From positions 24,862,001 through 24,926,000 of the forward strand of contig CM075985.1 in assembly GCA_038087875.1 (NCBI GenBank): a stretch of 64,000 bases of DNA, given 5' to 3'. This document shows, in pieces, positions 15,001 to 30,000 of this stretch. Every line of letters begins with the position of its first letter. The stretch's first letter is position 1. Origin of the DNA: Malacoraja senta. Lineage: Eukaryota. The position numbers are program-made.

Positions 15001-18000
15001 CTGAGGATTAAGTATTTCAGTCAATTCAAGCAGATTATGGTCTGTGAATGAGGAAGTTGAGGATCCAATTGCAGAGGGATGCACAGAGACCCAATTCCGT
15101 GAGCTTGGTAACCAGCTTGCAGGGGATGATGGTATTGAACGCCAAGCTGTAGTCTATAAACAACAGCCTGACGTAAGTGTTATATTGTCCAAGTGGTCCA
15201 GTGTGGAGTGGAGAGCCAGTGAGATTGCATCCTCCGTGGACCTATTGTGATGGTAGGCAAACTGTAATGGGTCGAGGTTCTTGTTGAGGTAGGGGTTGAT
15301 ATGCCCCATAACCAACTTCTCAAAGAGTTGTGACCAATTGATGTACATGAGTTGCTGTGGAGATTCATTACTTATCCCTAGATTGTATATTTTGACTAAA
15401 CATCATCTGCTCAGTTTCAAAAGTACTGTACATTGAATGCATTGAGACAGCAGTGTGCCCCAATTAGTCAGCTAGAAGTTCTGCTCAATGGTGCATCTAG
15501 TAGTTCTGGTCAGTGGTGCATGGTGCATCTGGTCAGTGGTGGACTCACTGCTGAGATCTTCAGCCAAGGACGAGGCCAAAGTTGCCTGGAGTTCCAGAGC
15601 AGGTGGTGATAATTTTCACAGGAGCAGGTGCTGACACAGAGGCTGGTCTGGGTGGTCGGGATGCGTGTTGTTGTGAGTAGACCAGGTTTGTAAGCATAAT
15701 CAAGAATAGAAATAAGGAGACTGGGAGTGGGGCAGGGTTGATGACTAAGTTCTTATTAGATCTTGGTGCATCATGATGGCAGGGTCCTGAGATTATCAGT
15801 CCGGCTGAGGCATTGGTATCCGTCGGTGCCCTGTATGTGGCGACTCTTTGCATACCTTGTGTATGCAAAACAAAGAATCTCACGGTGACATGTCACGTGA
15901 TAATAAAGTATCATTCATTCATTCATACAGCAATACAAGTCTCTTATGATAACATGCTTGGAAGACTGATTAAATTTTGACCTCCTCATCTGAGAAAATA
16001 TATGCTTCCTGAGAGATCGTGCAGTGAAAGTTGACCGGATTGACTTCCGCTCCAGCAGAATTGTCATATCTGGAGAGATTAGGTCAAGTCCGTTTAACCA
16101 CCTGTAGTTAGTAGAATGGAAGAAAGCCTCACTGCAACTTCAAAAATCCAGAGAGGTCTGATAAGGATTCCCCTTGCTGTGGAGACTTAGACTATTGGGT
16201 CACAGTCTCAAGATATTGGCACGAAATTATGGACTGAAATGAGGAGAACATGAGGAGAGAGTGAGGCCCTGTGGAGTTTGCTAATCAAAACACTTGAGAG
16301 CCAACATCACTGAATATATTTTAGGAGGTAGAGAAATATAAAATATCAAAAGCCTCAAGGGGGTTGGATAGAAAGCGATCATCAGCCATAATCATATTGA
16401 ATGGCAGAGCTTGTCCTTCCATTTACTATACAATTAAAATAGTTGAGTGCCAATTGTCCATTTCCCTTATTGGCCAATAAATGAATCACCAGAGGAAATC
16501 GGTCTCGGACAGGCGGTAGAAAACTGGATTTTTATCCCGCCACCCCCCTCAAAGGCGCCAAAGTCACGCACATGGCCAGTGGCAGAACTGCAGCGCAGCT
16601 GAAGGTAAGTATTGTAACATTGCTACAACATGCTGGAGTAACTCAGCGGGACCGGCAGCATCTCTGGAGAGAAGGAATGGATGATGTTTCGGGTCGAGAC
16701 CCTTCTTCAGTCTGAAAGAAGGGTCTTGACCTGAAACGTCACCCATTCCTTCTCTCCAGATATGCTGCCGGTCCCGCTGAGTCACTCCTACATTTTGTAG
16801 GAGTCTATCTCAATTTTCTTGGCCCCGCTCTGGGAGCAGAAGAGGGGACGGATCGGATCCGCAATGGCCGTGAGCCCCAGGCCGAGTTCGACGATCGTTT
16901 GCCTGCTTCTACTGCTGTTGGAGGTGAGAGGTTGCGTCACGCCAGGGTCTTGGGCCTGTCCCACTTTGGCCGTCAGTTACGCAACGGGTCGGTTGCTCGC
17001 GAAGATTCCGTTTGGTACAAAATTCCGGAACGCCGCGCGATACCGCGCACAACTCCATACCCCTCCGCGCTTCTCAGTGGAAGCGGCCCCGCGCGGCCAC
17101 ACGATGCCCGTGCGCCTCAACGCGATGACGAGGTCACTTAATTTGCATGCCAAGGACACGCAAGTGGGACAGGCCACTTCACCAAAAGAGTTTCAGACCA
17201 CAACATCATCTACTACCAGCTACAAACTAAACAGGTAACAGTGGGATTACAGTACTTCTTGCCCACAATTGTTCTTGAAAGGAACCTGGTTTATTCTTCC
17301 GTCTTTGAACAAAATATCACTGATTGTATCTCACATTATTCTTCCTAATTGATTGCTTTGATAGGATGGCATCATTGGATTGATGTTGCAATTTAAAGGG
17401 CAACATGAAGAAGAAAATCTATTGTTAACATGACAATCTAACTGAATGTGATGAATGGAAACACAAAAGATGCTGATGGAAGGTTGTGCACTTGCCTCCT
17501 TAACATGGGGCAATTGTGAATTGACCAGCAATAAATGCCTGCATTGCTGGTGGTACCTACACCCTGAAATAAAAAATGAAAAGATGGACCTGATGCCAAG
17601 TCATCGAGCAACAGTGTGCATTATAACTTGCTGTGATATCTTTTATGTTTTACAGAAACAACAACAACAAAGGTACCACCCACAACTACATCGACCCGCA
17701 GCTACACAGCTGGTAAGTGATTGACGGTTGTTTATCCTTGCACCAAGTTTGTCGGCACAGGTCTCTGGGTGAGCCATTGAGAAAGCAGCAACGTACAACT
17801 TTCACAGCTTTCTCAGATAATGCATTTTCTAAACATTTGCTTTTGAATTAATTGTAGCTGTGGACTTTGTGTTGTAAATTATGGATAATCTTCAGAGGAC
17901 TGTGTTTCGGTGAATTTTCCCATTAGACTGTGCTGATCAAGAAATCAACACCAGTTGATACAATATTCAGTGATGTGCATAATTGGCAGAAATAGGCTCA

Positions 18001-27000: not shown

Positions 27001-30000
27001 TGGGTGAGCCATTGAGAAAGCAGCAACGTACAACTTTCACAGCTTTCTCAGATAATGCATTTTCTAAACATTTGCTTGTGAATTAATTGTAGCTGTGGAC
27101 TTTGTGTTGTAAATTATGGATAATCTTCAGAGGACTGTGTTTCAGTGAATATTCCCATTAGACTGTGCTGATCAAGAATTCAACACCAGTTGATATAATA
27201 TTCAGTGATGTGCATAATTGGCAGAAATAGGCTCATGATTATGTGCCTCCAATATGTGAAATGCAAATGAGTATTCCACAGATTATTTTGATTTAATATA
27301 TCTTGTCATCCAAAAATATTGTGATTCAAAAGAAGGCAAAATGTTTCAGGAATTTGGGAGTAGGTGCTGCACATCTTCACAACTATAAACCCGGCCAGTG
27401 CTGAGAAATACCATCAAATGAGGAAATATGTATCTTGCTATTTTATTTTGTACTTTTGGTTAATGAACACTTGAAGGAAGATGAACTGAACCTTTGCTTC
27501 TCCTTTTCCAGACTGGAAATGTAATGGTGTCTGGTCTGCATGGTATAATGACCACATACCAACTGAATACAGTCCAGGCGATACTGAATTACTGGAATCC
27601 ATACGGCAAGATCTGTGTCCTTCCAGTTACTGTACAATTAAAAAGGTTGAGTGCCAATTTGTCGATTTCCCTTATTGGCCACTAAATGATTCACCAGACA
27701 ATGTGACCTGTGACCCAGACTTAGGACTGGTCTGCATAGTCTCCAATGAGCCTTTGGAGGAAGTCAACATCTGTTTTGACTATCAAATTCGATTTTGCTA
27801 TGAGCATGTAGCAACAACAACTCCAAGTACAACATCAACAACAACAATTTCAGGTAAATATGCCAGTCATGTGCAAGGATACTGTCTTTTATTGATGGGG
27901 CATTTGGAATTTTATCTGTTTCAGTGAGAGTTCCTGATGCATTTCCATCCATCACGTTTCCCCTCTAATGAGCTCTGTACAAACTAGCCAGCCCATATTC
28001 TCTCCATTAATCCCCACTCTTCATGTGGCCATGCTACTTCTCATTTTCTTAAAATTCTATCCCTCACCGACGACTTCCTTCTGCTGCGGTCCATACACTC
28101 TCTCATCCTCCTTCCCTCTGTCTATTTCCAGCAGTAATTCTCAAGCCACCGATCTAAGCTACAGAGTATCCTTCAACTTGGATACCTTTCCCTATGAGGA
28201 ACTCTTACTCTGCCCTTCTTTAACTCTCTATCACTCCTTAACACCATTGAGAAACAACTTCACCAAAAGAGTTTCAAACAACAACATCATCTACTACCAG
28301 CTACAAACTAGACGGGTAACAGTGGGATTACTGTACTTCTTGCCCACAGTTGCTCTTCAAAGGAACCTGGTTTATTCTTCCGTCTTTGAACAAAATATCA
28401 CTGATTCTATCTCACATTATTCTTCCTAATTGATTGCTTTGATTGGATGGCATAATTGGATTTATGTTGCAATTTAAAGGGCAACATGAAGAAGAAAATC
28501 TATTGTGAACATGACAATCTAACTGAATGTGATGAATGGAAACACAAAAGGATGCTGATGGAAGGTTGAGCACTTGCCTCCTTAACATGGGGCAATGGTG
28601 AATTGACAATAGATGCCTGCATTGCTGGTGGTACCTACACCTTGAAATAAAAAATGAAAAGATGGACCTGATACCAAGTCATCGAGGAACAGTGTGCATT
28701 ATAACTTGCCGTGACATCTTTTATGTTTTACAGAAACAACAACAACAAAGGTACCACCCACAACTACATCGGCCCGCAGCTACACAGCTGGTAAGTGATT
28801 GACGGTTGTTTATCCTTGCACCAAGTTTGTCGGCACAGGTCTCTGGGTGAGCCATTGAGAAAGCAGCAACGTACAACTTTCACTGAGCTTTCTCAGATAA
28901 TGCATTTTCTAAACATTTGCTTTTGAATTAATTGTAGCTGTGGACTTTGTGTTGTAAATTATGGATAATCTTCAGAGGACTGTGTTTCAGTGAATATTCC
29001 CATTAGACTGTGCTGATCAAGAATTCAACACCAGTTGATACAATATTTAGTGATGTGCATAATTGGCAGAAATAGGCTCATGATTATGTGCCTCCAATAT
29101 GTGAAATGCAAATGAGTATTCCACAGATTATTTTGATTTAATATATCTTGTCATCCAAAAATATTGTGATTCAAAAGAAGGCAAAATGTTTCAGAGATTT
29201 GGGAGTAGGTGCTGCACATCTTCACAACTATAAACCGGGCCAGTGCTGAGAAATACCATCAAATGAGGAAATATGTATCTTGCTATTTTATTTTGTACTT
29301 TTGGTTAATGAACACTTGAAGGAAGCTTCTCCTTTTCCAGACTGGAAATGTAATGGTGTCTGGTCTGCATGGTATAATGATCACACACCATCTGAATACA
29401 GTCCAGGCAATACTGAATTACTTGAATCCATACGGCAAGATCTGTGCCCTTCCATTTACCATACAATTAAAAAAGTCGAGTGCCAATTTGCCGATTTCCC
29501 TGAATGGCCAATAAATGAATCGCCAGACAATGTGACCTGTGACCCAGACGTAGGACTGGTCTGCAGTGTCTCCATAGAATCCTTGGAGGAAGTCAAGGTC
29601 TGTCTTGACTATCAAATTCGATTTTGCTGTGAGAATATAGCAACAACAATTCCAAGTACAACATCTGTTTTCAGCTGCAATTCTACATTCACCAATCTAC
29701 TCAAACATGGCCTATCATCCATCTTTGTTCCTTTTCCCAATGAGGAACCCTTACTCTTCCCTCCTTTAACCCTCTCTCACACCTTATCTGCTCTCTGCTA
29801 CAGATTCATCTTGATTATCTTATCGCTTTTTCATTCACCTCCATAAAATTCACATGGACCTTGTTGTCATTAAAACTGAGAGGCCTTGAATGTATGTGGT
29901 GTAGTAGACAGTTTGGAAGGCGTAGCGCAAAAGGAGAGCAAGGGGAGGTGGACAGGATAAGCTCTCGGAGTCACAATAGAAGACGGGAGAAAATCTGAAG

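What the first reader, a model, noticed from the sequence alone, without database searches (positions are those of the whole stretch)
17176..29665. Intron-containing 1.85 kb tandem array encoding a 133-aa CysD plus short Thr-linker repeat
Seen: each unit contributes 57+342 = 399 coding nt, giving CysD beads separated by only ~30-35 Thr-rich residues. Introns look as similar between copies as exons do. Established: in mammalian MUC5AC/MUC5B, CysD and PTS repeats lie in one giant exon with long PTS spacers. Inference: here mucin length and CysD valency are set by recent unequal crossing-over of an exon-intron cassette. The product would be CysD-dense and PTS-poor, and copy number probably varies between individuals.
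Basis: partly seen in the sequence, partly recalled or inferred. Interest (0 to 1): 0.68.

Follow-up and report, generated by a model that had tools for sequence, protein, structure and literature searches.

The report
Skate mucin gene's amplified CysD cassette
A skate gel-forming mucin gene carries six intact and one broken tandem copy of a 1.85-kb two-exon cassette (cross-linking CysD domain plus short sugar-bearing linker), a natural case of mucin length changing by duplication of whole exon-intron units.

Summary
Window 17176-29665 holds seven head-to-tail units of 1843-1850 bp, 94-100% identical. Each unit has a 57-nt Thr-rich exon and a 342-nt CysD exon (Pfam PF13330). Both are phase 1-1 with canonical splice sites.

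Introns are as alike as exons, or more so. The array sits between D3 and D4 exons of a MUC2/MUC5-type gel-forming mucin on the + strand. The window is not human: its closest proteins are skate RefSeq models.

- The seventh CysD exon lost its donor through a 284-bp deletion, so six units are intact.
- Decayed cassettes flank the array.
- A 161-codon PTS exon lies downstream at 44201-44683.

The Amblyraja protein model has three identical units of the same type. The Rhinoraja model has six identical units of the neighbouring cassette type. This points to recurrent, lineage-specific unequal crossing-over or gene conversion.

Not tested: mRNA inclusion, copy number in reads or individuals, and gel function.

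This is a new member of a known kind, of moderate interest.

The parts
1171..1359 (+). D3 (VWD3) exon of the mucin gene; HSP limits, not exact exon ends
   Evidence: tblastn 98% to Amblyraja model P0159 residues 893-955
2206..2706 (+). two exons: end of VWD3 (within ORF 1987-2454) and C8-3 (ORF 2518-2706)
   Evidence: Pfam VWD E 1.8e-6 and C8 E 1.1e-15. PDB matches to MUC5AC 1001-1083, MUC2 965-1046 and MUC5B 990-1075
4573..5128 (+). two exons (4573-4701, 4988-5128) of the TIL3/E3 region that closes D3
   Evidence: tblastn 100% and 72% to P0159; 84-88% to P0024 and P0002
6550..6653 (+). first PTS exon after D3 (104 nt, phase 2 to 1)
   Evidence: ag acceptor and gtaatg donor read. 80% to Rhinoraja model residues 1176-1210. 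Open in frame
12104..12184 (+). exon A0, an 81-nt Thr-run linker exon of an old cassette
   Evidence: ag/gtaagt, 22 of 26 residues T/S/P. The unit-like stretch 12129-12649 is 71% identical to unit 2
12650..12682 (+). short remnant of a CysD exon (dead)
   Evidence: tblastn piece of 11 residues, 64% identical; blastn match to 29481-29535
16412..16500 (+). second CysD-exon remnant, split over two frames (dead)
   Evidence: tblastn pieces in frames 2 and 1; 88% over 83 nt to unit 2
17176..29786 (+). tandem array: units 1-6 complete. Unit 7 is alike up to 29665, then has a 284-bp deletion and a diverged tail
17656..17712 (+). exon A1 (57 nt)
18277..18618 (+). exon B1 (342 nt, CysD)
19503..19559 (+). 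exon A2
20124..20465 (+). exon B2 (CysD). This exon was used for the searches and the fold
21350..21406 (+). exon A3
21971..22312 (+). exon B3 (CysD)
23198..23254 (+). exon A4
23819..24160 (+). exon B4 (CysD)
25048..25104 (+). exon A5
25669..26010 (+). exon B5 (CysD)
26891..26947 (+). exon A6
27512..27853 (+). exon B6 (CysD)
28734..28790 (+). exon A7
29341..29665 (+). exon B7: older, diverged CysD exon with an open frame and 8 Cys, but its normal donor is deleted. Only weak in-phase GTs remain, at 29629 and 29656
31625..31678 (+). 54-nt PTS mini-exon
   Evidence: ag/gtaggt read; 89% to Rhinoraja residues 2049-2066
32031..32096 (+). exon A8 (66 nt) of an older cassette, about 80% identical to the array unit
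33994..34335 (+). exon B8 (342 nt): CysD of the second type. This is the type amplified in Rhinoraja
   Evidence: Pfam E 3e-17
35356..35415 (+). exon A9 (60 nt)
43100..43159 (+). A-like linker exon (60 nt)
44201..44683 (+). largest PTS exon (483 nt; 136 of 160 residues T/S/P), built of 9/15-nt repeats
   Evidence: 70% to Rhinoraja residues 2392-2552
46685..46741 (+). 57-nt linker exon before the last CysD
47609..48003 (+). last CysD exon (395 nt), orthologous in three skates
   Evidence: Pfam E 2.4e-18; tree support 100/100
50344..62598 (+). D4 and following exons, given as HSP limits: 50344-50517, 50787-51023, 52668-52853, 52960-53166, 54644-54841, 55816-55881, 56018-56128, 60595-60720, 62494-62598
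   Evidence: Pfam VWD at 50751-51047 and 52599-52871, C8 at 54605-54859. PDB matches to the MUC2 C-terminal part. tblastn 77-97% to P0159

Best explanation
The window comes from a skate (order Rajiformes, species not determined), not from a human. It holds the middle of a MUC2/MUC5-type gel-forming mucin gene on the + strand. Unlike mammalian mucins, its central domain is split into many small symmetric (phase 1-1) exons. A 54-81-nt Thr-rich linker exon alternates with a 342-nt exon that encodes one CysD domain plus a short Thr-rich tail.

One such two-exon cassette, together with its two introns (about 1.85 kb), has been multiplied head to tail. This happened by unequal crossing-over, gene conversion, or both. 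The result is six intact units and a seventh hybrid edge unit whose CysD exon has lost its donor. Older decayed or diverged cassettes flank the array on both sides, which is a birth-and-death pattern.

If the exons are spliced as in the orthologous RefSeq models, the protein carries eight CysD beads. Six of them are near-identical and sit 40 residues apart, Cys to Cys. About half of the central domain is then CysD.

By analogy with what is published on mammalian CysD (non-covalent dimers acting as cross-links; a 12-CysD string makes mucus more robust), copy number would set the cross-link valency and so the pore size or stiffness of the gel.

Shown here: the anatomy, the domain identity, the similarity pattern and the differences between species. 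Inferred: the recombination mechanism, the splicing and the effect on the gel.
For: Anatomy:
- Seven units with a period of 1843-1850 bp, 94-100% identical.
- In units 1-6, 24 of 24 splice sites are canonical and all 12 exons are open.
- All exons are phase 1-1.

Domain identity:
- Pfam PF13330 at 56.8 bits against a cut-off of 22.4.
- phmmer against PDB gives 9 distinct sequences, all CysD-bearing mucin chains; the best is MUC5B 8oer at E 1e-12.
- The AlphaFold2 model has pLDDT 75.3. Its eight best Foldseek matches in PDB are all CysD domains, at prob 1.00 and TM 0.46-0.59.

Gene context: VWD and C8 exons lie before and after the array, collinear with skate mucin models at 77-100% identity.

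Young or homogenised copies:
- Intron differences are 0.07-3.0% and exon differences are equal or higher.
- No unit carries an insertion; unit lengths are within 7 bp of each other.
- Flanking cassettes are only 71-80% identical and are interrupted.

Edge effect and mosaic:
- The private changes of unit 7 sit at unit positions 1070-1411, while units 6 and 7 share 14 variants at positions 21-457.
- Exon against intron for unit 6 versus 7 gives Fisher p = 4e-14.

Lineage-specific amplification:
- The Amblyraja radiata model has 3 identical CysD of the same type, with the same exon-junction residues.
- The Rhinoraja longicauda model has 6 identical units of the type that is single-copy here, at 33994-34335.
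- In the tree the last CysD is orthologous at 100/100, and the array type forms one clade at 96/99 with unit 7 basal.
- Across 17 elasmobranch models the CysD count runs from 2 to 9.

Function, by analogy only:
- abstract and section 19 of PMC3195396;
- passages of PMC4431476;
- passages of PMC7599080.
Against: - No transcript or read data could be consulted, so inclusion of the array exons in mRNA and the exact copy number are unproven.
- Units 2 and 3 differ at only 2 of 1847 positions. That is the kind of repeat an assembler can miscount.
- Between the two sub-types (units 1-4 against 5-6), pN/pS is about 1-2, from 2-3 synonymous and 10-14 non-synonymous changes, and is not significant (p = 0.54).
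- Even the old copy B8 is no better conserved in the exon (283/342) than in the adjacent intron (131/152 and 264/338). At the nucleotide level, constraint on the exons shows only as the absence of indels and stops and the invariance of Cys and Trp.
- The cross-species comparison rests on computed RefSeq protein models. Their repeat counts may themselves suffer from assembly or model errors.
- The Foldseek TM-scores are moderate and the model is of medium confidence.
Confidence: 0.8

Rival explanations
1. The array is old, and its uniformity is kept up mainly by gene conversion between units rather than by recent duplication through unequal crossing-over. Copy number would then be fairly stable within the species.
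For: - Unit 7 is a mosaic: its first ~1000 positions are homogenised with unit 6 and its CysD exon is old.
- The same unit sub-type, with the same unusual Cys pattern, already exists in Amblyraja. The cassette type therefore predates the split, yet copies cluster by species.
- For the Schistosoma SmPoMuc repeats the authors favoured gene conversion (passages of PMC2576457).
Against: - Copy numbers differ between skate models (3 against 6-7), and Rhinoraja multiplied another cassette. That needs gain or loss of units, not conversion alone.
- The diverged edge unit is what the unequal-crossing-over model predicts (model as described in PMC2576457).
- The two processes are not exclusive.
Confidence: 0.3
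2. The genomic copy number matters less than splicing. Because every central exon is phase 1-1, cells can skip or include cassettes, so the number of CysD beads in the protein is set at the mRNA level.
For: - All central exons except the first and last are multiples of 3 in phase 1-1.
- RefSeq isoforms of shark relatives differ only by in-frame blocks: 524 and 440 residues in Scyliorhinus canicula, 20 and 454 in Pristiophorus. Some of these blocks contain CysD.
- Clusters hold up to 37 member sequences.
- The idea was raised for chicken Muc13 (abstract passage of PMC1552070).
Against: - The isoforms are computed models from other species, and partly from a paralogue. I saw no transcript evidence.
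- The splice sites of units 1-6 are strong and identical, which gives no reason for selective skipping.
Confidence: 0.25
3. The array is wholly or partly an assembly artefact: the true number of units is smaller or larger than seven.
For: - Units 2 and 3 differ at 2 of 1847 positions, and units 1-4 by at most 1.2%.
- No reads could be examined.
Against: - The copies are not identical. There are private variants in units 1, 4, 5 and 7, and shared variants that define nested groups.
- Both array edges are distinct junctions with decayed copies.
- The window has no gaps.
- Models from other skates and sharks also show runs of identical CysD units.
- A wrong count would not change what the structure is.
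Confidence: 0.15
4. The repeated exons are dead pseudo-exons inside a long intron, and the mature mucin skips them.
For: - Cassettes on both sides have decayed.
- pN/pS is about 1 or above.
- Exons are not better conserved than introns.
Against: - 12 of 12 exons of units 1-6 are open, and 24 of 24 splice sites are canonical.
- All 8 Cys and the WxxW motif are invariant in units 1-6.
- Units are 85-88% identical in protein to the Amblyraja units, which that model splices with the same junctions.
- With at most 4% divergence, though, open frames alone are weak evidence.
Confidence: 0.07
5. The array belongs to a separate CysD-only gene, like the fish lateral-line protein made of CysD chains, and not to the flanking VWD-bearing mucin.
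For: A CysD-only protein family exists in fishes, with 27 CysD reported for an Amblyraja radiata protein (passages and Table 1 of PMC11765562).
Against: - The array is on the same strand as the D3 and D4 exons and lies in phase between them.
- Two skate models run collinearly from D3 through the same CysD and linker types into D4.
- No signal-peptide or terminal exon was seen next to the array, but I did not search for one specifically.
Confidence: 0.03

Closest known systems
RefSeq models of skates: 'mucin-2-like isoform X2 [Amblyraja radiata]' (P0159) and 'mucin-5AC-like [Rhinoraja longicauda]' (P0152), names as given
   Same: These are orthologues. They are collinear with the window's D3, linker, CysD, PTS and D4 exons at 77-100% identity outside the repeats. 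They share the 133-134-residue unit made of a linker and a CysD, and the same junction residues. The last CysD is orthologous.
   Different: Amblyraja has 3 units of the window's array type. Rhinoraja has none of that type but 6 identical units of the type that is single-copy here, and a longer PTS block of about 266 residues. These are protein models only; I could not see their genomic loci.
Mammalian MUC5AC, MUC5B and MUC2
   Same: The domain plan is the same: D3, then CysD alternating with PTS, then D4. The CysD is homologous in sequence and fold. CysD copy number varies between human MUC5AC alleles (summary passage of PMC11344006).
   Different: In humans the whole central domain is one large exon with long PTS runs (passages of PMC9712336; PMC5789918). 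Here it is at least 23 small exons, the linkers are 40 residues and the largest PTS exon has 161 codons. The skate CysD has 8 Cys, against the 10 reported for higher organisms (passage of PMC4431476).
Xenopus tropicalis skin mucin MucXS (Otogl)
   Same: It is a gel-forming mucin whose central domain is multi-exonic, with many alternating Cys-rich and PTS repeats: 39 and 34 (passages of PMC5789918).
   Different: The authors state that its Cys-rich repeats are not typical CysD domains. Here they are canonical PF13330 domains.
Exon-per-repeat mucins: chicken Muc13 and Schistosoma mansoni SmPoMuc
   Same: Each protein repeat is encoded by its own exon. In SmPoMuc a ~1-kb genomic unit of exon plus introns is repeated up to about 20 times, with highly conserved introns (>94% identical). 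The authors discuss it in terms of unequal crossing-over and gene conversion (passages of PMC1552070; PMC2576457).
   Different: Those repeats are short PTS-type peptides in unrelated, non-VWD or membrane mucins. Here the unit has two exons and carries a folded, disulfide-rich domain.
Strings of CysD: the engineered 12-CYS molecule, Oikosin 1, and the fish lateral-line CysD-only protein
   Same: Many CysD lie close together. The 12-CYS transgene product made mouse mucus more robust (passages of PMC4431476). CysD number varies widely between fish species (PMC11765562).
   Different: Those molecules lack VWD assemblies, and most lack PTS. Here the string is built into a polymerising mucin.

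Membership tests
CysD domain (Pfam PF13330, Mucin2_WxxW) | Match to the family profile above its curated cut-off | tested here: met
   56.8 bits against 22.4 for unit 1. Scores of 56.1, 63.5 and 67.1 bits for the copies at 29.3, 34.0 and 47.6 kb
CysD domain (Pfam PF13330, Mucin2_WxxW) | WxxW motif near the N-terminus | tested here: met
   W-S-A-W in all 7 array copies and in the 34-kb copy; W-S-S-W in the 47.6-kb copy
CysD domain (Pfam PF13330, Mucin2_WxxW) | Ten invariant cysteines, as stated for higher organisms in PMC4431476 and PMC3195396 | tested here: not met
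   There are 8 Cys per domain core in all copies. The skate orthologues show the same 8. I read this as a lineage variant of the domain, not as grounds for exclusion, since the profile and the fold are met
CysD domain (Pfam PF13330, Mucin2_WxxW) | CysD fold (small beta sandwich, PMC7599080) | tested here: met
   AlphaFold2 model at pLDDT 75.3. The best 8 Foldseek matches in PDB are all CysD domains of MUC5B, MUC2 and MUC5AC, at prob 1.00 and TM 0.46-0.59; the next match has E 0.34. Model confidence is only medium
CysD domain (Pfam PF13330, Mucin2_WxxW) | Calcium binding and non-covalent self-association | not testable with these tools
No verdict
MUC2/MUC5-type gel-forming mucin | VWD-C8-TIL assembly (D3) before the central domain | tested here: met
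   Pfam VWD and C8 at 1987-2706. PDB matches to the D3 of MUC5AC, MUC2 and MUC5B at E 1e-34. The TIL part is seen only by tblastn to orthologues
MUC2/MUC5-type gel-forming mucin | PTS region with CysD interspersed | tested here: met
   Outside the Cys cores, 429 of 619 residues are T/S/P. Eight CysD exons
MUC2/MUC5-type gel-forming mucin | Fourth VWD-C8-TIL unit after the central domain (absent from MUC6 and MUC19; passage of PMC4948705) | tested here: met
   Pfam VWD at 50751-51047 and 52599-52871, and C8 at 54605-54859. TIL at 55994-56227 scores 18.9 bits, below its cut-off. PDB matches to the MUC2 C-terminal part
MUC2/MUC5-type gel-forming mucin | N-terminal D1-D2 and C-terminal cystine knot | not testable with these tools
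   Both lie outside the 64-kb window. Whether the gene is the MUC2 or the MUC5 orthologue could not be told: D3 scores are nearly equal for MUC5AC, MUC2 and MUC5B, and RefSeq names vary between mucin-2-like and mucin-5AC-like
Intron-containing tandem exon cassettes in mucin genes (chicken Muc13, SmPoMuc, MucXS) | One protein repeat per genomic unit of exon(s) plus introns, repeated head to tail with near-identical introns | tested here: met
Intron-containing tandem exon cassettes in mucin genes (chicken Muc13, SmPoMuc, MucXS) | Transcripts that contain the repeated exons | not tested
The only support is indirect, from orthologous RefSeq models

The most novel reading that the evidence does not exclude
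The amplified cassette is more than extra copies. Its CysD sub-type, shared with Amblyraja, has lost the second Cys of the C-terminal Cys-Cys pair and gained a Cys a few residues after the conserved Leu-Cys-Pro. Its surface residues change faster than its introns. If the two displaced cysteines do not pair inside the domain, each bead would offer free thiols. The array would then be a dial for covalent cross-linking between chains. That dial could be set in the germ line by unequal crossing-over and, because all exons are symmetric, in the tissue by cassette skipping.
Probability: 0.12. Interest if true: 0.6.

Novelty: new member of a known kind. Interest (0 to 1): 0.36.

Why it matters
Mucin repeat evolution has been studied mostly inside single giant exons, where repeats are hard to assemble and to align. 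In this gene each CysD bead and its linker sit in a 1.85-kb unit with introns, so the copies can be told apart. Recombination breakpoints can be mapped, such as the hybrid edge unit. The history can also be compared between skate genera, which amplified different cassettes of the same gene.

The product is a natural counterpart of the engineered multi-CysD string that strengthens mouse mucus (PMC4431476). It therefore offers a way to ask how CysD number and a fixed 40-residue spacing shape a gel.

The ingredients are already known: concerted evolution of CysD, CysD copy-number variation, and multi-exon mucin domains. Orthologues are already annotated. The finding therefore extends an existing picture and does not change it.

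Tried and rejected
Searches and jobs that gave nothing usable:
- TRF cannot see a 1.85-kb period, because its longest period is 500. The repeat finder and blastn were used instead.
- The search for homologous proteins with the CysD exon and lengths 'longer' scored none of 79 candidates. It searches only up to 2000 residues, so this says little.
Names came instead.
- Complex prediction for two copies of the CysD found a full queue. It was accepted and was unfinished. There is no verdict.
- ARAGORN found no tRNA-like genes.

Two errors of mine, both corrected:
- My first CysD profile contained one mis-framed row. It was rebuilt and the counts were redone. Numbers are not used.
- My first guess for the start of the 6.5-kb PTS exon (6548) was off by 2 nt. 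It was corrected to 6550.

Readings considered and dropped:
- Human origin. The closest proteins are skate and shark models, and primate MUC5AC comes only at 34-35% identity.
- A bacterial reading of the ORFs. Canonical splice sites and vertebrate orthologues rule it out.
- A CysD-only gene (see the rival explanations).
- Positive selection on the beads. The counts are too small (p = 0.54).
- Disulfide rewiring. The connectivity from MS work was revised by the crystal structure, whose map is in a supplementary figure I could not see. The fold tool returns no coordinates, so this question stays open.

Literature. Four searches listed no paper on CysD cassettes in cartilaginous-fish mucins. Among the 15 papers listed, only the zebrafish lateral-line paper held both CysD and a skate or shark term.

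Full report

Yes. The window contains no N. The repeat finder places seven copies in register from 17176, with start-to-start spacings of 1843-1850 bp. blastn of unit 2 (19023-20869) against the window gives these identities:
- units 1-4: 99.2-100%;
- units 5-6: 97.1 and 96.7%;
- unit 7: 94.1% up to 29665.

TRF missed the array only because its longest period is 500.

Reading unit 2 base by base gives two exons:
- a 57-nt exon at 19503-19559 (acceptor ..ttttacag, donor gtaagt);
- a 342-nt exon at 20124-20465 (acceptor ..ttttccag, donor gtaaat).

Both start with two bases that complete a codon and end with one base of the next, which is phase 1-1. The same sites are present in all units, except that unit 7 lacks the donor of the long exon.

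**2. What do the exons encode?**

The long exon matches Pfam Mucin2_WxxW (PF13330, the CysD domain) at E 3.7e-15, 56.8 bits against a cut-off of 22.4. Further evidence for the domain:
- phmmer against PDB sequences returns nine distinct chains, all mucins with CysD. The best is MUC5B (8oer, E 1e-12), followed by MUC2 and MUC5AC.
- I built an AlphaFold2 model of the exon-B2 product from a 21-row alignment. It has mean pLDDT 75.3.
- The eight best Foldseek matches of that model in PDB are all CysD domains, at prob 1.00 and TM 0.46-0.59. The ninth match has E 0.34.

The short exon encodes 18 whole codons, of which 12-13 are Thr, Ser or Pro. From the last Cys of one bead to the first Cys of the next there are 40 residues.

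I searched, aligned and folded the gene exon by exon. Where totals are given, they are sums of per-exon counts.

**3. Which gene, and which animal?**

I scanned 240 of the 266 plus-strand stop-to-stop frames of 45 residues or more against Pfam. I left out 26 frames that repeat the array units 2-7. Nine frames reached the curated cut-off:
- before the array: VWD and C8 at 1987-2706;
- CysD at 18.3, 29.3, 34.0 and 47.6 kb;
- after the array: VWD at 50751-51047 and 52599-52871, and C8 at 54605-54859.

Four weak matches fell below their cut-offs: TIL, CBM_14, PHD_4 and DUF1091.

The D3 exon matches the D3 of human MUC5AC, MUC2 and MUC5B almost equally, at E about 1e-34. The D4 exons match the MUC2 C-terminal structures.

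A profile-free search of 1.84 billion representative proteins with exon B2 found 225 proteins at E <= 1e-3. A named search found 107 proteins at E <= 1e-20 among 2112 candidates. The top of that list is made of RefSeq models of sharks, skates and rays, called mucin-5AC-like or mucin-2-like.

I compared 23 such proteins with the window. The two skate models are closest: Amblyraja radiata (P0159) and Rhinoraja longicauda (P0152). They are collinear with the window's exons at 77-100% identity outside the repeats, but not identical.

I therefore take the window for a third skate-like species, not for human. Nothing in it was treated as human sequence. Whether the gene is the MUC2 or the MUC5 orthologue cannot be told from these data.

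**4. The whole central domain**

Between D3 and D4 I find 23 exons that are open in frame, each with an ag acceptor and a gt donor:

| Exon | Coordinates | Note |
|---|---|---|
| PTS exon | 6550-6653 | first after D3 |
| A0 | 12104-12184 | linker exon of an old cassette |
| A1/B1 to A6/B6 | within the array | six intact units |
| A7 | 28734-28790 | linker exon of unit 7 |
| mini-exon | 31625-31678 | PTS |
| A8 and B8 | 32031-32096 and 33994-34335 | older cassette |
| A9 | 35356-35415 | linker exon |
| A-like exon | 43100-43159 | linker exon |
| PTS exon | 44201-44683 | 483 nt; 136 of 160 residues T/S/P |
| linker exon | 46685-46741 | before the last CysD |
| last CysD exon | 47609-48003 | orthologous in three skates |

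Together these make 4153 nt.

**5. Edges of the array**

The array is bordered by dead or diverged cassettes.

Upstream:
- A0 and its intron are 71% identical to the unit.
- Two CysD-exon remnants follow, at 12650-12682 and at 16412-16500. The second is split over two frames.
- Between and after them lie interspersed repeats. These include a reverse-transcriptase fragment (Pfam RVT_1 at 10126-10446, minus strand) and an 85-nt inverted repeat at 16623-16800 whose arms recur elsewhere in the window.

Downstream:
- Compared with unit 6, unit 7 has a 284-bp deletion. It removes the last 17 nt of exon B, the donor and about 267 nt of intron.
- Homology then resumes at 75% up to about 29786.
- Only weak in-phase GTs remain, at 29629 and 29656.
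- The next cassette (A8/B8) is about 80% identical and is split by an insertion.

So six units are intact, and the seventh CysD exon is probably skipped or dead.

**6. How alike are introns and exons?**

In a MAFFT alignment of the seven units:
- units 1-4 differ from one another by 0.25-1.0% in exons and 0.07-1.2% in introns;
- units 1-4 differ from units 5-6 by 3.3-4.0% in exons and 2.1-2.9% in introns (unit 2 against 5: Fisher p = 0.08);
- unit 6 differs from unit 7 by 8.6% in exons but 0.6% in introns (p = 4e-14).

The variant map shows why. The private changes of unit 7 sit at unit positions 1070-1411, made up of a 16-nt indel and the CysD exon. Units 6 and 7 share 14 variants at positions 21-457. 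Unit 7 is therefore a hybrid: its 5' part is homogenised with the array and its 3' part is old. An edge repeat that escapes homogenisation looks like this.

Counts of synonymous and non-synonymous changes between the two sub-types (2-3 against 10-14) give pN/pS of about 1-2. This is not significant.

Even the older copy B8 is no better conserved than its flanking intron: 283/342 against 131/152 and 264/338. The exon, however, has no indels, while the introns have 5 and 25 gap columns.

All eight Cys and the WxxW motif are invariant in units 1-6.

**7. Comparison between species**

The protein models show the following:
- The Amblyraja model has three identical CysD of the window's array type. 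It shares the same unusual Cys pattern and the same residues at the exon junctions that I predict.
- The Rhinoraja model has no unit of that type. It has six identical 134-residue units of the type that is single-copy in the window (B8).

In a maximum-likelihood tree of 22 CysD:
- the last CysD is orthologous in the three species (support 100/100);
- the array type forms a clade of the window's units 1-7 plus Amblyraja 1-3 (96/99), with unit 7 basal;
- the window's units 1-6 group together (86/80).

Across 17 elasmobranch models the CysD count runs from 2 to 9, with runs of equal short linkers. By profile envelopes, the white shark has six linkers of 40 residues and Rhinoraja five of 34.

These are computed models and their repeat counts may be imperfect. 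The pattern is nonetheless what recurrent, lineage-specific gain and loss of cassettes would give. Gene conversion may add to the homogeneity, and I cannot separate the two.

**8. Splicing**

I saw no transcript data. Indirect support comes from the canonical and identical splice sites and from the orthologous models that use the same junctions.

Because the exons are symmetric, any of them can be skipped without breaking the frame. RefSeq isoforms of catshark and sawshark relatives differ only by in-frame blocks of 20, 440, 454 and 524 residues, two of which contain CysD. Alternative inclusion is therefore a live rival for what sets the bead number in the protein.

**9. Likely function**

This part is inference from published work on mammalian CysD:
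- CysD domains form non-covalent dimers, and the authors propose that they act as cross-links that set pore size (abstract of PMC3195396).
- MUC2 CysD1 is a small beta sandwich with two calcium ions. It is tethered to D3 by about 40 residues of PTS, and the authors argue that linker length decides what a CysD can reach (passages of PMC7599080).
- A secreted string of 12 CysD made mouse intestinal mucus more robust. The same paper notes mucins with up to 25 CysD and cites concerted evolution of the domain (passages of PMC4431476).

A mucin with six to eight beads at a fixed 40-residue spacing should thus give a more densely cross-linked gel. Nothing here tests that. A two-copy complex prediction was queued but did not finish.

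**10. What is already known**

- CysD-dense proteins are common in public protein sets. Of the 150 best representative hits, 67 have at least five CysD, and 14 of those have a median linker of 45 residues or fewer. The maximum is 32 CysD.
- Multi-exon mucin domains are described for chicken Muc13 (passages of PMC1552070) and for Xenopus MucXS. The Cys-rich repeats of MucXS are said not to be typical CysD (passages of PMC5789918).
- A 1-kb exon-plus-intron unit repeated up to about 20 times is described for Schistosoma SmPoMuc (passages of PMC2576457).
- CysD copy-number variation is reported for human MUC5AC alleles (summary passage of PMC11344006).
- Surveys of vertebrate mucins mention cartilaginous fish only for gene counts (passages of PMC4948705). 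Shark skin proteomics lists mucin-2-like and mucin-5B-like proteins without domain analysis (passages of PMC10707392).
- Four full-text searches listed no description of intron-containing CysD cassettes in elasmobranch mucins.

I therefore file this as a new member of a known kind. It is a real and cleanly resolved example, useful for studying mucin repeat evolution, and not a new principle.

**11. Open point noticed on the way**

Units 1-6 and the Amblyraja units carry a Cys a few residues after the conserved Leu-Cys-Pro, and a Tyr in place of the second Cys of the C-terminal Cys-Cys pair. Unit 7, B8, the last CysD and all Rhinoraja copies have the opposite state. The total stays at eight Cys.

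Whether the new Cys takes over the lost partner's bond, or whether two thiols are left free, could not be tested.

Noticed in passing
window 20124-20465 and the other B1-B6 exons; compare 29341-29665, 33994-34335, 47609-48003: The amplified CysD sub-type has a displaced cysteine. It gains a Cys shortly after the Leu-Cys-Pro motif and has a Tyr instead of the second Cys of the C-terminal Cys-Cys. The total stays at 8. The three Amblyraja units share this state. Unit 7, B8, the last CysD and all nine Rhinoraja CysD do not.
   Followed up: partly
window 29665/29666 (unit 7): Relative to unit 6, a 284-bp deletion removes the end of the CysD exon, its donor and about 267 nt of intron. Diverged unit sequence (75%) continues to about 29786.
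   Followed up: yes
window 12650-12682 and 16412-16500: Two decayed remnants of CysD exons lie upstream of the array, the second one frameshifted. Interspersed repeats lie between them.
   Followed up: partly
window 16623-16707 / 16716-16800; also 5285-5355, 3216-3301, 44732-44819: An 85-nt inverted repeat (89% complementary, 8 nt apart) sits at the left edge of the array. Its arms are copies of a short dispersed element found at three other places in the window. ARAGORN sees no tRNA-like gene.
   Followed up: partly
window 10126-10446 (-), 14192-14552 and 31047-31411, 14282-14806 (-): Retroelement debris lies in the mucin introns. There is a Pfam RVT_1 match at 10126-10446. A 360-nt repeat is shared at 79% by 14.2 kb and 31.0 kb. 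One frame matches Pfam ALKBH8_N at E 6.6e-14, which I did not pursue. Six of the 8 frames tested had no family.
   Followed up: partly
window 44201-44683: The largest PTS exon is itself a coding micro-repeat: TRF reports periods of 9 and 15 nt with about 50 and 29 copies at 72-73% matches. It could vary in length on its own. The Rhinoraja model has a longer block here.
   Followed up: partly
window 41480-41720: An 84-bp tandem repeat (2.9 copies, 91% matches) lies inside the most G+C-rich stretch of the window, 40-42 kb at 49% G+C. Its nature is unknown.
   Followed up: no
array exons against introns; B2 against B8: CysD exons are not better conserved than neighbouring introns at the nucleotide level. 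This holds within the array and against the older copy: 82.7% in the exon, 86.2% and 78.1% in the introns. pN/pS between sub-types is about 1-2. The counts are too small to call selection.
   Followed up: partly
proteins P0161, P0164, P0166 (Scyliorhinus canicula) and P0158, P0163 (Pristiophorus japonicus): RefSeq isoforms of related shark mucins are identical except for in-frame blocks of 20-524 residues that begin at linker-exon boundaries, and some contain CysD. One cluster holds 37 member sequences and an isoform is numbered X39. This suggests cassette skipping in the models.
   Followed up: partly
protein P0152 (Rhinoraja longicauda) against window 33994-34335: A related skate amplified the neighbouring cassette type to six identical units and lacks the window's array type in its model.
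   Followed up: yes
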